Shown: positions 38,766 through 43,808 of the stretch, piece by piece
Layout of the letters: every line of letters starts with the position of its first letter
Position numbering within the stretch: the stretch's first letter is position 1
Source of the DNA: Patescibacteria group bacterium UBA1396
GTDB lineage: Bacteria > Patescibacteriota > Microgenomatia > UBA1400 > UBA1396
DNA: 63,920 nucleotides
Direction: 5' to 3'
NCBI GenBank assembly: GCA_002305195.1
Contig: DBQK01000009.1
Coordinates: 61,575 to 125,494 of the forward strand
Position numbers and translations under genes: made by a program
The notes under the pieces: generated by a model
The model's database searches: none
The model's input: only the letters and a program-made list of their open reading frames with translations
Told to the model about the DNA's origin: nothing

Positions 38766-39400
38766 AAATCAACAATCCAGAAATAACCCAACCTAATTTA
38801 AATCCAGTCGATCTTACCTGGCTGAAATTTGGTTTAATTATTGCTTTTGTTTTGATTATGGCTGGTGTTTGGTGGCAGTCGTGGCGAAACACTAATAACG
38901 TCGCCGACCAATCAATGATAGATATTTCTCCTACTTTAACACTGCCCAGTGGTTGGGTTGAGGAAGATGTCGAAGAACACGAAACAATGTTATTCCATGC
39001 TAAAAAAGAAGCTCTTTTTGATAATGAAAAAACTGCTCAGGTAGCGGTTGTAGTTTTACAAAATGTTTTAGATTCTGAGCAAGATCCAGCGGAGTATGCC
39101 GCCGAAATGATTGCTGGTGCCCAAAATACCCTACCAGGCTTAAAGTACACAGATAGCGAATTTATTAGTCAAGACAGTTTTGATTTACAAAGACTTAAAG
39201 GTGAATACCAAGTGGGTGATTTAACCTTCGGAATCAAACAACAATTATATTTCGTTGATGACCAGGTTTTTACTTTTTCCGGGTCATACCCTCTCGACGA
39301 CTCTATTACCTCTGCTGAAGTTGAAATAATTTTTGATCAAGTAATTGCCGATAAAAAACTAATTCCGCCCCAGGCAGAAATTACGGAAATCTCAGAATAG
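38762..39400 (+). CDS. Membrane-anchored protein, possibly PsbP/DcrB-like fold
   Basis: Single N-terminal TM, acidic extracellular domain; 4 bp overlap with the sortase gene. Confidence 0.5.
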
Positions 39401-40006
39401 CTAAATCTGCACAAGCTTAACTAAATTTTTGGTTTTAGCTTGAATATTTAGACCAACCTGTTTGAGCAATTCTTGTTGGCTGATTAATAATTGAGTTATC
39501 CCAAACCACACAGTCACAAAAATCAACGTGCTTTGAAGTTGCCAGCGCAAAAATGGTAGCCCATTAACGTAGGCCATACCTAGACCGGCGAGAGTATTAG
39601 GATACATTTGCCAGTGGTCAAGCCACCAAACACCAAAATTTGTCCAGGTAAAGAAAAATAAATTAAAGCCAATTCCAGTTAGGGCAGCCTTAAACATGAG
39701 AGGTACGCGATCAAACTTTTTATTTTTCAGCAACTTATTGGCAATTAAAAGTGGAAAGAGGAATCCTGACCAAGTAAACAGAAAAATACTGCTATTACCG
39801 ATAACTAAGTCTGACAAAATCAGCATTAATATAGTAAAGGTAATACTAGTTTTTCTACCCCAGTAATAGACTACCAGCAAGGAACTGGCAGTTAGAATCT
39901 CTCGATTTGGGCCAAGATCTAAAAGAGTCCTCTCACCCAAAGTTATCAGCCCAAGAATAACTAGCGGCCAGTATTTACTACCAAATTGACTCATATTTCC
40001 ATTCAA
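39401..40006 (-). CDS. Putative ECF S-component (DUF6580-like)
   Basis: About 6 TM segments; ILSDLVIG and YPNTLAGL..AY..GLPF motifs. Confidence 0.7.
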   Translation of the reverse strand: MNGNMSQFGSKYWPLVILGLITLGERTLLDLGPNREILTASSLLVVYYWGRKTSITFTILMLILSDLVIGNSSIFLFTWSGFLFPLLIANKLLKNKKFDRVPLMFKAALTGIGFNLFFFTWTNFGVWWLDHWQMYPNTLAGLGMAYVNGLPFLRWQLQSTLIFVTVWFGITQLLISQQELLKQVGLNIQAKTKNLVKLVQI

Positions 40007-40436
40007 TTATGTCGCCATCATTTAATTGGTAATCAGCCGCTCCAACTGAAGAAACCGCTCCATTGGTGTAAAAAATCCAGGCTTTTCGTTCGTCTTGCGC
40101 AAAGCTGCCAATTTTTTCAACTAGTGAACCAAAGTCATACTCCTTGATGGACAACTCTAACTCATTCTTAGTTGCCAGATCTTTTAAGAGCTGTAAAGCG
40201 GTGCTATCGGCTCGAGTGACCGCCGAAAACTCGGTTGGTTCTAACTGATTCGGAAAAAATATTTTAGTATCGACCTTGATATTTTGAGGTTTGTTTGGCG
40301 GTGATTGAGATAATGATGTTGTATCAGGTTGTGGAATTTGATCAGTGGTAGGCATCGATTGCCAGATAAAGAACATCGCCACCACCAATCCAATGCCGAT
40401 GAAACTTAAAAGTGAGATTAATTTTGATTTATTCAT
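39978..40436 (-). CDS. DUF4430 / transcobalamin C-terminal-like anchored protein
   Basis: FGSLVEKIG...WIFYTNG..SSVGAADYQLNDGDIIEWKY. Confidence 0.8.
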   Translation of the reverse strand: MNKSKLISLLSFIGIGLVVAMFFIWQSMPTTDQIPQPDTTSLSQSPPNKPQNIKVDTKIFFPNQLEPTEFSAVTRADSTALQLLKDLATKNELELSIKEYDFGSLVEKIGSFAQDERKAWIFYTNGAVSSVGAADYQLNDGDIIEWKYESIW

Positions 40437-42327
40437 TTAGCCTTAATTTTGCTTGGTATTGTTTTTCAAGGGTGGCCACAACTTTATCACGAATAGGCCG
40501 GACTGTGTCAAGGCTAATTGCTTGCTGAGGATCATGGTAGGTAAGTTTTATAAAGACTGACTTTTGGCCGTCAATTAATTGAGGTTCTTCGCCAAGTTTA
40601 ACCTGATATATTAATTGACTAACTTTTTTGATAGTGTCTAGGAGGTCTCCAACCTGAATTTCGACCGGCACCAACAAAGATAAGTCCTGAAAGATTACTT
40701 GTGGTGGAGAGGTTAAAACTTGAGTTGTCTTGGTCTCTTGGCTTTTTAATAGAGTATCCAGATCAAGTTGAGCTACGTATCCAGAGGAAAAATCAACTAC
40801 TTTTTCAATTGAGTAACAGGTAGAGTCTGGTTGATAACCAAGCCTAATGATCATCTCCTCAATGTCACCTTTTATTTGTCGATAACGAGCATCATTACCA
40901 AGAGCAATTACGCCAACAACATTCTTTTCAAGATACTGATCATCTGATCGATAATAAATTTTACCTACTTCAAAAATCTTTATGTGGCTATAGTGATGTT
41001 TGCGACGATAATTGGTACCTCGGACAAGCATTGGGATTAAGCTAGTGCGCAACATCCTTTTTTCACTAGTAAGTGAATTTTCCAGTATTACCGGTTCTAA
41101 AACGGGGTTTTGTTCATCGGTTAGTGGCTCGGTTATTTGCTCGTGATATCCCAGTCCAACTAGATAATCTCTGATTTTTTCACTGATGATGTAATTTTTT
41201 GATTGAATATCCTGAGGTGGAGGCGCTGCGGGCAAGTCTTCCGGAATTCTATCGTATCCGTATATCCGTAAAACTTCTTCTACCAAATCAGCTTCTTGCT
41301 CAATGTCGGTTCTAAAATAAGGTACATTAATTGTTAAAGTATCGTTGCCAGTTTGATCTGCCGGCAAATGAACTTTAGCTAAAAGTTCTTTGGTCTGATC
41401 AGCTGAGAAATCAATACCGGCAATCTGGTTAAGATAACTTAAGCGTAAATTAACTTTGTTTTCTGGAATAACTGTGGGGTAATTATCGACTTGTCCAACT
41501 AGTTCGCCCTCGGCCAGCTCGGTCAATAGTTGAGCTACTCTGGCTAAAGCTAGCTGAGTTAACTTGGGATGTAAGAATTTTTCCAGACGTGTGGAGGCTT
41601 CGGTGCGTAGATTGTGGCGTAGCGAGGAGCGTCTCACAGTAGCTTGGTAATAGTTGGCTGCTTCGACAACAATCGTAGTAGTGTTGTTGTTAACAGAGCT
41701 TGCCTCACCGCCGATGACGCCGGCCAGCGCCAGCGGGCGCTGGCCGCTAGCAATAATCAAATCATCCTCCACTAGAGCAATGGATTTGTTGCCTAAAACG
41801 GTTAGTATCTCGCCTTTGGCAGCTTGTCTAACAACAAAACGTTCTCCATCAATTTTTTCCAGATCAAAAGCGTGAAGTGGTTGTCCTGATTCCACCATTA
41901 CAAAGTTAGTAATATCAACCACATTATTAATCGGTTTAATACCATAAGCAGTTAATCTTTTTTTAAGCCAATCTGGCGACGGACCAACCTTAAGATTTTT
42001 AAAGGTTAAGGTTTGGAAGCGAAAACACAATTTTGGATCGGTTATTTCAACCGTAACACTGCCTGATTTATCGGTGAGCTCTGCTTCGTAAGCAGCCGGT
42101 AATTTTAGTTGGCGGCCGCTTACAGCGGCCGCCTCCCTGGCTATACCAAGCATCGACAAACAATCTGAACGATTTTGTCTAACCTCCAAGTCGTAAACTA
42201 GATCTCCCTCAATATCTTGAGGTGGGCCGTCTTGCATATGGCCAATAGCGGTCAAATCTGCCATCAACTTTTCTGCCTGACCATCAACTTCAACATAATC
42301 GTTAAGCCAACTTAAAGGAACCTTCAT
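40429..42327 (-). CDS. pheT: Phenylalanyl-tRNA synthetase beta subunit, short form
   Basis: NRSDCLS, NNVVDITN, GQPLHAFD, RTDIEQEADLVEE; OB-fold (B2) domain absent. Confidence 0.93.
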   Translation of the reverse strand: MKVPLSWLNDYVEVDGQAEKLMADLTAIGHMQDGPPQDIEGDLVYDLEVRQNRSDCLSMLGIAREAAAVSGRQLKLPAAYEAELTDKSGSVTVEITDPKLCFRFQTLTFKNLKVGPSPDWLKKRLTAYGIKPINNVVDITNFVMVESGQPLHAFDLEKIDGERFVVRQAAKGEILTVLGNKSIALVEDDLIIASGQRPLALAGVIGGEASSVNNNTTTIVVEAANYYQATVRRSSLRHNLRTEASTRLEKFLHPKLTQLALARVAQLLTELAEGELVGQVDNYPTVIPENKVNLRLSYLNQIAGIDFSADQTKELLAKVHLPADQTGNDTLTINVPYFRTDIEQEADLVEEVLRIYGYDRIPEDLPAAPPPQDIQSKNYIISEKIRDYLVGLGYHEQITEPLTDEQNPVLEPVILENSLTSEKRMLRTSLIPMLVRGTNYRRKHHYSHIKIFEVGKIYYRSDDQYLEKNVVGVIALGNDARYRQIKGDIEEMIIRLGYQPDSTCYSIEKVVDFSSGYVAQLDLDTLLKSQETKTTQVLTSPPQVIFQDLSLLVPVEIQVGDLLDTIKKVSQLIYQVKLGEEPQLIDGQKSVFIKLTYHDPQQAISLDTVRPIRDKVVATLEKQYQAKLRLNE

Positions 42328-43352
42328 GCTATCTCCTCAATCACTAATTCACCGTTATATAACTTACGCACATCGCTGATACCGTATTTAAGCATTACGA
42401 GCCTATCAAAGCCCATGCCAAAAGCGAAACCAGACCATTTATTGGTATCAACTTTACAAGCTTTTAATGTATTAGGGTGTACCATCCCGGCTCCCAACAC
42501 TTCAATCCAGCCTCGGTGCTTACACACGGGACAGCCCTTTCCACCGCAGAACGTGCATTGAATATCCATCCCGGCTCCTGGTTCAACTTGAGGGTAATAT
42601 TTGCATCTAAAACGTGTTTTGACTTCTTCTCCATATAAAAATTTTGCGAGGGCAACTAAAGTACCTTTTAAAGACGACATATTAATATTTTTATCCACCA
42701 CTAAACCCTCATACTGATAAAACATTGAGTTATTGGTCGTATTGGTAGTTTCATTACGATAAACCTTGCCAGGCACAACAATTCGAAGCGGTAATTTTTC
42801 ATTTAACATTGCCCTAATCTCAACCGAAGAAGTATGTGTCCTTAACAAGTAATCCGGTTCTTTAATATACAGAGTGTCAGCTAGATCGCGAGCGGGATGA
42901 TCTAGAGGTAAATTCAATTTAGCAAAGTTGTTATCATCGGTTTCGATTTCTGGTCCTTCATACACGCTATAACCTAAATAGCGAAAAAAAGAGTTAACTT
43001 GCCTCATTACCTGAGTTGAGGGGTGTAAAAATCCGGTTTGTGGTCTGATTCCAGGCAAACTTGTATCCGTTTGATCAAGCTCTTTTGTTCCTGACTGTTC
43101 AAGTTCTTTTTTACGAGTTGTTAGAACCTGTTGAATTTCTGTTTTAACTTGATTAATAACTCGTCCCAATTGCTGTCTATCCTCTAAAACCAGCTTTTTT
43201 AATTCTTTTGACTGCTGATTAAGCTCACCTTTTCTGCCAAGGTACTGAACCTTAGCTTTGTTTAAGTCATCGGAGGATGAAATTTTTTCAATATCGGATA
43301 AGGCTTTATCCCTAATTTGATTTAATTTAGTTATTTTTAGATCGATATTCAT
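42324..43352 (-). CDS. pheS: Phenylalanyl-tRNA synthetase alpha subunit
   Basis: HPARD, LRTHTS, WIEVLGAGMVHP, FAFGMGFDRL. Confidence 0.97.
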   Translation of the reverse strand: MNIDLKITKLNQIRDKALSDIEKISSSDDLNKAKVQYLGRKGELNQQSKELKKLVLEDRQQLGRVINQVKTEIQQVLTTRKKELEQSGTKELDQTDTSLPGIRPQTGFLHPSTQVMRQVNSFFRYLGYSVYEGPEIETDDNNFAKLNLPLDHPARDLADTLYIKEPDYLLRTHTSSVEIRAMLNEKLPLRIVVPGKVYRNETTNTTNNSMFYQYEGLVVDKNINMSSLKGTLVALAKFLYGEEVKTRFRCKYYPQVEPGAGMDIQCTFCGGKGCPVCKHRGWIEVLGAGMVHPNTLKACKVDTNKWSGFAFGMGFDRLVMLKYGISDVRKLYNGELVIEEIA

Positions 43353-43390
43353 AGAGTCATTATAGCTTTCTTGTTTCGGCTTTTTTTACT

Positions 43391-43416
43391 AAAAAACCCT
43401 CCTGGTTAGGAGGGTT
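43391..43416 (-). terminator. Intrinsic terminator after the pspC pair
   Basis: AACCCTCCT-aacc-AGGAGGGTT followed by a T-run on the minus strand. Confidence 0.75.
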
Positions 43417-43436
43417 GTACTTACAGACTACCCTCC

Positions 43437-43808
43437 CTACTGGTTAAAGAAAAAGAAGGTAGAATTGAAGTTTTTATTCACCATAGCTAAATAATTATAC
43501 CAGGACTCCGGTAATGGTGCCCGACTGTTTAAAAGCAGATAAATTAGTAAACCTCCAAAAACAACTAAACTGATTATTAATGTTAACAACCTACCAAGCC
43601 AAGAATCTCCTAACAACCAGCTAGTTCCCAGCAAAATTAATAACATCGGCCACAACTGCCAAATCTGCGGCCAGATACTCTTATCTAGCCAGCCAAAATT
43701 GTTGAGTAAAAAAACGATGCCTAAAAAAATTAGTAAAAAGGCCAAGATAATTTCGCCTGAATTCGGCTTATCTCTTTTTAAATGGTGATTAGAAATAGGC
43801 TTTTCCAT
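43437..43808 (-). CDS. DUF5668 / LiaF-like membrane protein
   Basis: LGIVFLLNNFG...WQLWPMLLILLG. Confidence 0.75.
   Translation of the reverse strand: MEKPISNHHLKRDKPNSGEIILAFLLIFLGIVFLLNNFGWLDKSIWPQIWQLWPMLLILLGTSWLLGDSWLGRLLTLIISLVVFGGLLIYLLLNSRAPLPESWYNYLAMVNKNFNSTFFFFNQ

What the first reader, a model, noticed from the sequence alone, without database searches (positions are those of the whole stretch)
39401..40436. Possible cobalamin-scavenging pair coupled to pheST
Seen: DUF4430 overlaps pheT by 8 bp and the DUF6580-like gene by 29 bp; no ECF ATPase or B12 riboswitch is nearby. Known: DUF4430 resembles the transcobalamin C-terminal B12-binding domain, and solitary S-components can import B12. 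Inference: constitutive binder-plus-permease uptake of B12, perhaps for a class II ribonucleotide reductase.
Basis: partly seen in the sequence, partly recalled or inferred. Interest (0 to 1): 0.55.

Follow-up and report, generated by a model that had tools for sequence, protein, structure and literature searches.

The report
Riboswitch-less CbrS/CbrT-like vitamin B12 uptake pair
Two overlapping genes behind pheST in this tiny CPR bacterium encode a membrane-anchored protein shaped like the B12-binding half of human transcobalamin and a small vitamin-transporter-like membrane protein; together they most likely import vitamin B12 for the cell's only, B12-dependent, ribonucleotide reductase.

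Summary
DUF4430 (39978-40436, minus strand) overlaps pheT by 8 bp. It overlaps the DUF6580 gene (39401-40006) by 29 bp from the TTG start, or 17 bp from the ATG start. No B12 riboswitch or ECF gene lies nearby.

- The DUF4430 model matches the transcobalamin beta domain.
- The DUF6580 model has the ECF S-component fold. Its family profile hits one solved protein only, CbrT, the proven B12 S-component.
- In Lactobacillus, cbrT sits in nrdJ-DUF4430(cbrS)-cbrT-pduO, the same gene order as here.
- In relatives, Rfam-grade cobalamin riboswitches directly precede DUF4430-DUF6580 in 7 loci. nrdR plus a class II RNR flank the pair in 7 of 18 loci.
- The window's own genome encodes nrdR plus an RTPR-like class II RNR on another contig.

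EcfT was found in 1 of 97 DUF6580-bearing Patescibacteria, so the permease probably works alone, as BtuM does.

The pheST linkage is species-specific and looks incidental. No binding or transport has been measured.

Verdict: a new variant of a known kind of system. This scan has noted the same pair in many other CPR genomes.

The parts
39978..40436 (-). CbrS-like binder, 152 aa. It has an N-terminal membrane anchor (helix 4-26), a roughly 25-aa Pro/Ser/Thr/Gln-rich linker, and a DUF4430 / transcobalamin beta-type domain (residues ~52-150).
   Evidence: Pfam PF14478, E 7e-13. AF2 model pLDDT 90.3. The best PDB match is the human transcobalamin beta domain 5no0 (TM 0.86 normalised to the target, rmsd 2.0 A over 104 columns, E 5e-8), followed by intrinsic factor and haptocorrin. 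hhalign against Lactobacillus CbrS gives prob 97.7%, E 1.8e-12.
39401..40006 (-). DUF6580 membrane protein, 201 aa from the TTG start or 197 aa from the ATG at 39994. It has the ECF S-component fold and is a remote CbrT homologue, making it the putative corrinoid permease.
   Evidence: Pfam PF20221, E 3.9e-24. AF2 model pLDDT 91.6. The top 22 VIA-align hits are all ECF S-components (Z 10.6-14.5), and the next hit has Z 8.6. The family profile hits only 6fnp_A (the 182-aa membrane-protein chain of the ECF-CbrT entry, identified as CbrT) in the PDB, E 0.011. hhalign against CbrT gives prob 94%, E 1.2e-7 over 151 columns.
40429..42327 (-). pheT, the upstream gene of the same apparent transcription unit. 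Its stop overlaps the DUF4430 start by 8 bp.
   Evidence: Pfam B3_4, B5, tRNA_synthFbeta and FDX-ACB; junction sequence.
42324..43352 (-). pheS, the first gene of the apparent four-gene unit.
   Evidence: Pfam tRNA-synt_2d and Phe_tRNA-synt_N.
39363..39379 (-). Terminator-like hairpin followed by a T-run, 22 nt after the DUF6580 stop. It is the likely end of the transcription unit.
   Evidence: Consensus scan only.
43388..43500 (-). Possible Phe leader/attenuator upstream of pheS. It comprises a TATAAT box, the peptide MVNKNFNSTFFFFNQ, alternative pairings, and a terminator at 43416-43395.
   Evidence: Sequence; fold; weak Rfam Phe_leader match, 32.9 bits against a gathering score of 55, E 0.013; terminator scan. 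Not verified.

Best explanation
The two genes form a minimal corrinoid (vitamin B12) scavenging system, a distant, ECF-less version of cbrS-cbrT of Lactobacillales. The DUF4430 protein is anchored in the membrane by one N-terminal helix and holds a transcobalamin-beta-type domain on a flexible linker outside the cell. There it is inferred to capture cobalamin and hand it to the DUF6580 protein. DUF6580 is a six-helix S-component-type carrier that is inferred to move the vitamin across the membrane by itself, as BtuM and solitary BioY do. Uptake would be pulled by intracellular trapping, meaning adenosylation and binding to the RTPR-like class II ribonucleotide reductase encoded on contig C11. 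In this species the pair has no B12 riboswitch and no promoter-like site of its own. It is read through from pheS-pheT, so its expression does not respond to B12. Shown here: the folds, the homologies, the gene order, B12-riboswitch control and class II RNR linkage in relatives, the presence of the RNR, and no detectable EcfT. Inferred: ligand binding, hand-over, direction of transport and the energy source.
For: (1) Binder fold: the model matches the transcobalamin, intrinsic factor and haptocorrin beta domains. The isolated human beta domain binds cobalamin and cobinamide (PMC5599065). The aromatic residue of the beta-hairpin (F102 in DFG) and W120 are conserved and align with the W of haptocorrin's SWG and the W of its YWELL motif.
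(2) Permease fold: all top 22 structural matches are ECF S-components.
(3) Specific kinship with the proven B12 S-component: CbrT is the only PDB sequence hit by the DUF6580 profile. hhalign gives prob 94% and shares the motifs R-x7-8-PNV(E/Q)xVT and S(D/N)xxxG.
(4) Same architecture as the known cluster: Lactobacillus and Faecalicatena loci read nrdJ(RTPR)-DUF4430-CbrT-PduO (PMC5997447).
(5) Conserved pairing: in all 18 of 61 same-order genomes that carry DUF4430, DUF6580 follows it on the same strand, 17 times adjacent and once one gene apart. It also follows in 21 of 30 phylum-wide DUF6580 loci.
(6) B12 riboswitches above Rfam gathering score directly precede DUF4430-DUF6580 in L011, L016, L017, L043, L054, L056 and L062. 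In L005, L008 and L015 a riboswitch sits directly after the pair. No RNA family other than tRNA was found in these loci.
(7) Link to the user enzyme: nrdR plus NrdJ_Z or an RTPR-like RNR lies within 6 kb of the pair in 7 of 18 loci. All 18 pair-bearing genomes have an RTPR-like RNR or a strong PF02867 RNR barrel match (NrdJ_Z-type where typed), and 0 of the 13 genomes lacking both have the pair (nominal Fisher p 0.007, relatives not independent).
(8) The window's own genome has nrdR plus an 833-aa RTPR-like RNR (PF21995 49.6 bits; TIGR02505 E 4e-77). No NrdD was found, and no BtuCD-type FecCD permease.
(9) Solitary operation: EcfT is not found in G000 or in the same-genus genomes G001 (97% complete) and G002 (95% complete). 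It occurs in 3 of 61 same-order genomes and in 1 of 97 DUF6580-bearing genomes of a 401-genome phylum sample. BtuM is a precedent for a B12 S-component that works without an ECF module (PMC6072759).
Against: No binding or transport data exist for any DUF4430/DUF6580 protein, and no paper mentions DUF6580. The CbrT kinship is remote (19% identity; E 0.011 by profile-sequence search). The window protein does not match CbrT's Pfam family PF12822. The window's own copy has no riboswitch and no nrd neighbour, so the B12 link is by homology to relatives. No cobalamin adenosyltransferase was found in this 73%-complete assembly: PduO and CobA are both missing, although same-genus G002 has CobA. A related Firmicute operon (L. 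sakei lsa1836-1840, with transcobalamin alpha- and beta-like proteins plus an ECF module) has been linked experimentally to heme uptake (10.1101/864751), so another tetrapyrrole is conceivable. A beta domain alone, without the alpha/alpha-toroid half of transcobalamin, may bind only weakly.
Confidence: 0.72

Rival explanations
1. The pair is the substrate-capture part of a canonical ECF transporter, and the EcfT/EcfAA' genes lie in the unassembled 27% of the genome.
For: The assembly is only 73.4% complete. CbrT, the closest characterised relative, needs an ECF module (PMC5997447). The 3 same-order genomes that have EcfT all carry the pair.
Against: EcfT was not found in same-genus G001 (97% complete) and G002 (95% complete), nor in the single-contig pair-bearing genomes G010, G041 and G060. 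Only 1 of 97 DUF6580-bearing genomes in the phylum sample has EcfT. The A-x-x-x-A motif of helix 1 is invariant in CbrT (A16/A20), and from my own knowledge it is needed for docking to EcfT. It is absent from the window protein and from 28 of 30 DUF6580 sequences.
Confidence: 0.08
2. The pair imports a different tetrapyrrole, heme, as proposed for the transcobalamin-like ECF operon lsa1836-1840 of Lactobacillus sakei.
For: That operon combines transcobalamin beta- and alpha-like proteins with an S-component, and its deletion or overexpression changed heme content (10.1101/864751).
Against: In relatives the pair is controlled by cobalamin/AdoCbl riboswitches and sits beside AdoCbl-dependent-type RNR genes. 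No heme-related context was seen.
Confidence: 0.05
3. The pair is functionally tied to phenylalanyl-tRNA synthetase, for example through a cofactor or a membrane function needed for PheRS, as the overlap with pheT might suggest.
For: There is an 8-bp overlap with pheT and no promoter-like site in front of DUF4430.
Against: Of the 17 other pair-bearing loci in the order (plus one DUF6580-only locus), only same-genus G002 has pheST within 6 kb. There, bipA and a 155-aa ORF separate pheT from the pair. In G000 bipA lies on another contig. In same-genus G001 the pair has different neighbours. The junction is therefore a recent rearrangement in a compact genome.
Confidence: 0.03
4. The pair handles corrinoids but is not a simple importer. 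It could be a surface store or sensor, or act in salvage of incomplete corrinoids such as cobinamide.
For: CbrT also transports cobinamide, and the transcobalamin beta domain binds cobinamide. Several relatives carry extra riboswitch-controlled genes of unknown function beside the pair.
Against: No corrinoid-remodelling genes were noticed. The S-component fold is known only from importers. The simplest need of a genome with an RTPR-like RNR and no B12 synthesis is uptake of complete cobalamin.
Confidence: 0.1

Closest known systems
cbrS-cbrT of Lactobacillales (nrdJ-cbrS-cbrT-pduO cluster; ECF-CbrT, PDB 6FNP; Santos et al. 2018, PMC5997447)
   Same: The gene order is the same: a 145-155-aa membrane-anchored DUF4430 protein directly upstream of a ~180-200-aa S-component gene. 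DUF6580 is remotely homologous to CbrT and the window's DUF4430 protein to CbrS. The pair is linked to an AdoCbl-dependent-type RNR in relatives.
   Different: The Pfam family differs (PF20221, not PF12822). Sequence identity to CbrT is only ~19%. There is no ECF module in the genome and no AxxxA docking motif. In this window there is no nrdJ or pduO neighbour. CbrS itself has never been characterised.
BtuM of Thiobacillus denitrificans (solitary B12 S-component; PMC6072759; PDB 8c7p, 8ovv)
   Same: It has the S-component fold (Z 12.4, rmsd 3.1 A, 163 residues aligned). It occurs in organisms without an ECF module and is proposed to import B12 on its own.
   Different: No sequence match was found: BtuM was not hit by the DUF6580 profile at E<=10. 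No Cys or His is invariant in DUF6580, so BtuM's cysteine ligation and decyanation chemistry is not expected. BtuM has no transcobalamin-like partner.
Transcobalamin / intrinsic factor / haptocorrin, and bacterial transcobalamin-like SLBB proteins (Burroughs et al. 2007, PMC1796856)
   Same: It has the beta-grasp SLBB fold with the clade-specific beta-hairpin. It is predicted to be surface-exposed. The 2007 paper predicted that such proteins scavenge B12 for bacteria that cannot make it.
   Different: Only the beta domain is present. There is no alpha/alpha-toroid half in the window or the genome, although relative G041 has a separate toroid gene between the two genes. The 2007 prediction tied these proteins to CbiO/CbiQ operons, which are missing here.
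L. sakei lsa1836-1840 (ECF-like operon with transcobalamin alpha- and beta-like proteins; 10.1101/864751)
   Same: It combines a transcobalamin-beta-like exported protein with an S-component.
   Different: That system includes EcfAA'T and an alpha-like protein and was linked to heme. The CPR pair is under B12 riboswitches in relatives.

Membership tests
Pfam PF14478 (DUF4430) / PF20221 (DUF6580) | Score above the curated gathering cut-off | tested here: met
   49.3 bits against 23.8, and 86.2 bits against 27.
CbrS-CbrT / ECF-CbrT system | A DUF4430 gene directly upstream of, and co-oriented with, the S-component gene | tested here: met
   Window ORFs; reference loci L020 and L025.
CbrS-CbrT / ECF-CbrT system | The S-component is homologous to CbrT | tested here: met
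   The homology is remote. It is the only PDB sequence hit (E 0.011), and hhalign gives prob 94%, E 1.2e-7. The window protein does not match CbrT's Pfam family PF12822 at E<=0.01.
CbrS-CbrT / ECF-CbrT system | An ECF module (EcfT with EcfA/A') is present in the genome | tested here: not met
   PF02361 was not found in G000 (73% complete), G001 (97% complete) or G002 (95% complete). It occurs in 1 of 97 DUF6580-bearing genomes in the phylum sample.
CbrS-CbrT / ECF-CbrT system | The A-x-x-x-A motif in helix 1 for docking to EcfT (the role of the motif is from my own knowledge of ThiT/ECF work) | tested here: not met
   CbrT has A16/A20 conserved. The window protein has none, and only 2 of 30 DUF6580 sequences do.
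CbrS-CbrT / ECF-CbrT system | Binds and transports cobalamin | not testable with these tools
   This needs a binding or uptake assay.
BtuM family | S-component fold in an organism without an ECF module | tested here: met
BtuM family | A conserved Cys (axial cobalt ligand) and sequence similarity to BtuM | tested here: not met
   The invariant columns of 30 DUF6580 sequences include no Cys or His. BtuM was not among the profile hits at E<=10.
Transcobalamin / intrinsic factor / haptocorrin | A beta (SLBB) domain with the clade-specific beta-hairpin | tested here: met
   TM 0.86 normalised to 5no0, rmsd 2.0 A. The hairpin is strands 95-100 and 103-109.
Transcobalamin / intrinsic factor / haptocorrin | An alpha/alpha-toroid domain that sandwiches B12 | tested here: not met
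   The 152-aa protein has no such domain. tblastn found no homologue of relative G041's toroid protein in G000.
Cobalamin-riboswitch regulon | A cobalamin riboswitch in the 5' leader | tested here: not met
   None was found in the window or the genome. The feature is met in 7 related loci.

The most novel reading that the evidence does not exclude
DUF6580 is a family of stand-alone, ATP-independent cobalamin carriers. Together with a membrane-tethered transcobalamin-beta-type catcher, it forms the main vitamin B12 import route of Patescibacteria, where it is present in about a quarter of sampled genomes, almost none of which has an ECF module. It would be a two-protein importer that no publication describes. 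In this species it has escaped B12 feedback control by fusing into the pheST operon.
Probability: 0.55. Interest if true: 0.6.

Novelty: new variant of a known kind. Interest (0 to 1): 0.45.

Why it matters
CPR/Patescibacteria cannot make B12, yet many, including this one, rely on an AdoCbl-type class II ribonucleotide reductase for all DNA precursors. How they obtain the vitamin is not described in the papers I could search. No paper mentions DUF6580, and the held papers that mention CbrS give it no function. This pair offers a compact, directly testable candidate: two small genes that can be expressed in the E. coli btuF metE assay already used for CbrT and BtuM. It also offers a second example, besides BtuM, of an S-component that imports B12 without an ATPase. 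The riboswitch-less, pheST-fused copy in this window shows that the cassette moves and can lose B12 feedback regulation.

Tried and rejected
- The PF02867 family search reported no RNR in G000, G001, G002 and G004. This was a false negative: the RTPR-like enzyme matches that model only weakly. A protein query from relative L007 found it at E = 0, and Pfam and NCBIfam confirmed it.
- B12-binding domain PF02310, PduO PF01923, CobA PF02572, NrdD PF13597 and FecCD PF01032 were not found in G000. The assembly is 73% complete, so none of these shows absence.
- The word-based homologue search for the DUF4430 protein found only one near-identical cluster. The exhaustive phmmer search was needed.
- NCBIfam has no family for either protein.
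- tblastn of the DUF4430 protein against plasmids found no match.
- Accession CP013155 is not in the plasmid collection.
- Rodionov 2009, requested as PMC2612444 (an id given from memory), was not held under that id. It is cited only through Santos 2018.
- Functional coupling to pheST was considered and rejected.
- Heme as the substrate was considered and judged unlikely.
- The unknown 437-563-aa neighbour ORFs of relatives have no homologue in G000.

Full report
**What is in the sequence.** On the minus strand four ORFs follow one another with overlaps: pheS (42324-43352), pheT (40429-42327), a 152-aa ORF (39978-40436) and a 201-aa ORF (39401-40006). Pfam assigns PF14478 (DUF4430) to the 152-aa protein and PF20221 (DUF6580) to the 201-aa protein, both well above the curated cut-offs. 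The pheT stop and the DUF4430 start share ATGAATAA, an 8-bp overlap. The DUF6580 ORF starts at a TTG, 29 bp inside DUF4430. An ATG 12 nt further downstream gives a 17-bp overlap and is the start used in the public gene call. No promoter-like site lies in front of DUF4430. A terminator-like hairpin follows the DUF6580 stop (39379-39363), and another precedes pheS. The window belongs to a 666-kb, 12-contig, 73%-complete assembly. The nearest named DUF6580 homologues are from Candidatus Woesebacteria and other Patescibacteria. No Rfam family reaches threshold in the window. No cobalamin riboswitch is found in the genome or at E<=1 around the operon.

**The two proteins.**
- *DUF4430.* The model (pLDDT 90.3) has an N-terminal helix (residues 4-26), a low-complexity linker and a beta-grasp domain. 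Its best PDB matches are the isolated beta domain of human transcobalamin (5no0/5np4; TM 0.86 normalised to the target, rmsd 2.0 A), then whole transcobalamins, intrinsic factor and haptocorrin. The isolated human beta domain binds cobalamin and cobinamide (PMC5599065). The family's near-invariant residues (F102-G103, W120, N125, D142, W146) include the hairpin aromatic and a Trp that align with Trp residues of haptocorrin.
- *DUF6580.* The model (pLDDT 91.6) matches ECF S-components only in its top 22 VIA-align hits: HmpT, FolT, RibU, BioY, CbiM, BtuM, ThiT and PanT, with Z 10.6-14.5. The next hit drops to Z 8.6. The fold alone does not single out B12.
- *Specific kinship with CbrT.* A profile of 30 DUF6580 sequences, searched against all PDB sequences, finds exactly one S-component: chain A of 6FNP (E 0.011, full length). 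I identify this chain as CbrT, the cobalamin S-component of Lactobacillus delbrueckii, from its length and sequence.

**Link to the known cbrS-cbrT system.** Santos et al. (PMC5997447) state that cbrT lies in an nrdJ-cbrS-cbrT-pduO cluster. I fetched that locus from Lactobacillus and Faecalicatena genomes with a degenerate pattern taken from the CbrT peptide shown. Pfam shows RTPR-type NrdJ, a 145-154-aa DUF4430 protein (cbrS), CbrT (PF12822) and PduO. Profile-profile comparison gives DUF6580 against CbrT prob 94%, E 1.2e-7 over 151 columns, with shared motifs R-x7-8-PNV(E/Q)xVT and S(D/N)xxxG. DUF4430 against CbrS gives prob 97.7%. The window pair is therefore a remote counterpart of cbrS-cbrT in the same order and sizes.

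**Comparative genomics.**
- Among 61 genomes of the same order, 18 carry DUF4430. In all 18, DUF6580 follows on the same strand, 17 times adjacent and once with one gene between.
- In a 401-genome sample of the phylum, DUF6580 occurs in 97 genomes. In 21 of the 30 best loci DUF4430 sits directly upstream.
- Rfam scans of these loci found, apart from tRNAs, only cobalamin-riboswitch families, all above gathering score.
- The riboswitch directly precedes DUF4430-DUF6580 in L011/G041, L016/G054 and L017/G059 and in L043, L054, L056 and L062.
- The riboswitch lies directly downstream of the pair, in front of an unknown 546-563-aa ORF, in L005, L008 and L015.
- In 7 of 18 same-order loci the pair lies within 6 kb of nrdR plus a class II RNR. 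This is NrdJ_Z above the equivalog cut-off in L008, L009 and L015, and an RTPR-like enzyme with PF21995 in L005, L007, L016 and L017.
- One locus (L012) sits next to a class III NrdD instead.
- All 18 pair-bearing genomes have an RTPR-like RNR or a strong PF02867 RNR barrel match (NrdJ_Z-type where typed). None of the 13 genomes lacking both has the pair (nominal Fisher p 0.007). Relatives are not independent, so this p-value overstates the case.

That result was a false negative. A query with the RTPR-like protein of a relative finds G000:C11:11165-13492 at 68% identity. The 833-aa product carries the B12-dependent RNR insertion domain (PF21995, 49.6 bits) and matches TIGR02505 (RTPR) end to end at E 4e-77, below the equivalog cut-off. 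It is preceded by nrdR. No class III NrdD and no other strong RNR barrel match were found, so this is apparently the only RNR. No BtuCD-type permease was found. No adenosyltransferase was found in G000. Same-genus G002 has CobA, so the gap may reflect the incomplete assembly.

**Energy coupling.** EcfT (PF02361) is not found in G000, G001 (97% complete) or G002 (95% complete). It occurs in 3 of 61 same-order genomes, and the single-contig pair-bearing genomes G010, G041 and G060 lack it. In the phylum sample, 1 of 97 DUF6580-bearing genomes has it. The AxxxA motif of helix 1 is invariant in CbrT but missing from DUF6580. The family therefore most likely works as a solitary carrier. BtuM supports B12 uptake in E. 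coli without an ECF module (PMC6072759). DUF6580 is not a BtuM relative by sequence, and it has no invariant Cys or His.

**The pheST linkage.** Among the other pair-bearing loci in the order, only same-genus G002 has pheST within 6 kb. There, bipA and a 155-aa ORF separate pheT from DUF4430. G000 has bipA on another contig, and same-genus G001 has the pair among other neighbours. The overlap with pheT is thus a species-specific junction. Its consequence is that the pair is probably transcribed with pheST and is not B12-regulated. Upstream of pheS lies a possible Phe attenuator: peptide MVNKNFNSTFFFFNQ, alternative hairpins, a terminator, and a weak Rfam Phe_leader match. It would govern the whole unit, but it is unverified and was not seen in G002.

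**Prior knowledge and novelty.** Burroughs et al. 2007 predicted that bacterial transcobalamin-like SLBB proteins scavenge B12. According to Santos 2018, Rodionov 2009 predicted CbrT, and Santos 2018 proved it. cbrS is only named there. A related L. sakei operon was linked to heme. No paper in the library mentions DUF6580, and none combines Patescibacteria with B12 uptake. This scan has noted the same DUF4430-DUF6580 pair in many other CPR genomes. I formed my reading before consulting those notes, and my analysis agrees with them. The finding is a new variant of a known kind: a CbrS/CbrT-type system with a divergent, ECF-independent S-component. This copy is unusual only in lacking the riboswitch and in sitting in the pheST operon.

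**Limits.** Everything about ligand, direction and energetics is inference from fold, homology, regulation in relatives and gene context. The assembly is incomplete.

Noticed in passing
window 43388-43500 (minus strand): A possible phenylalanine attenuator lies upstream of pheS. A TATAAT box is followed by an ORF end reading MVNKNFNSTFFFFNQ* (5 Phe). GGGAGGG can then pair either with the Phe-codon stretch or with the 5' arm of a terminator hairpin (43416-43395, followed by six U). The Rfam Phe_leader match is weak: 32.9 bits against a gathering score of 55, E 0.013. The peptide is in frame with the C-terminus of the LiaF-like ORF 43437-43808. It was not seen upstream of pheS in same-genus G002.
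   Followed up: partly
L005:6952-8643, L008:4207-5847, L015:4243-5901 (relatives G010, G027, G053): A family of 546-563-aa proteins with no Pfam match lies directly downstream of the pair, each preceded by its own cobalamin/AdoCbl-II riboswitch. A second unknown family (437 and 457 aa) occupies the same position in L009 and L016. Neither has a homologue in the window's genome. Both are candidate extra B12-handling proteins.
   Followed up: partly
L011:6151-7461 (relative G041): A 436-aa prenyltransferase/squalene-cyclase-like alpha/alpha-toroid protein is encoded between DUF4430 and DUF6580, behind an AdoCbl-II riboswitch. With DUF4430 it amounts to a 'split transcobalamin'.
   Followed up: partly
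G000:C11:9527-10135 (L038:4318-5022, minus strand): A P-loop kinase-like gene (AAA_18 / cytidylate-kinase-like, 234 aa) is divergent from nrdR-RTPR in the window's genome. It is homologous to the gene directly upstream of DUF4430 in relatives L008, L012 and L015. This suggests the pair once sat in the nrd locus.
   Followed up: no
G002:C3:46327-49512, G049:C14, G008:C10, G006:C8: The RTPR-like RNR genes of several relatives lie in much longer open frames (1019-1127 aa), with the match split around residue 150-160 or 570. This suggests inteins or other insertions.
   Followed up: no
P0108 (2038 aa), P0109-P0111, P0115: Giant proteins carry 3-10 tandem DUF4430 domains. They were the best-scoring hits in the exhaustive search with the window's DUF4430 protein. 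Their organisms and contexts are unknown.
   Followed up: no
G027, G038, G053: These are the only 3 of 61 same-order genomes with a detectable EcfT, and all 3 carry the DUF4430-DUF6580 pair. In G027 and G053, where the positions were compared, EcfT lies on a different contig from the pair.
   Followed up: no
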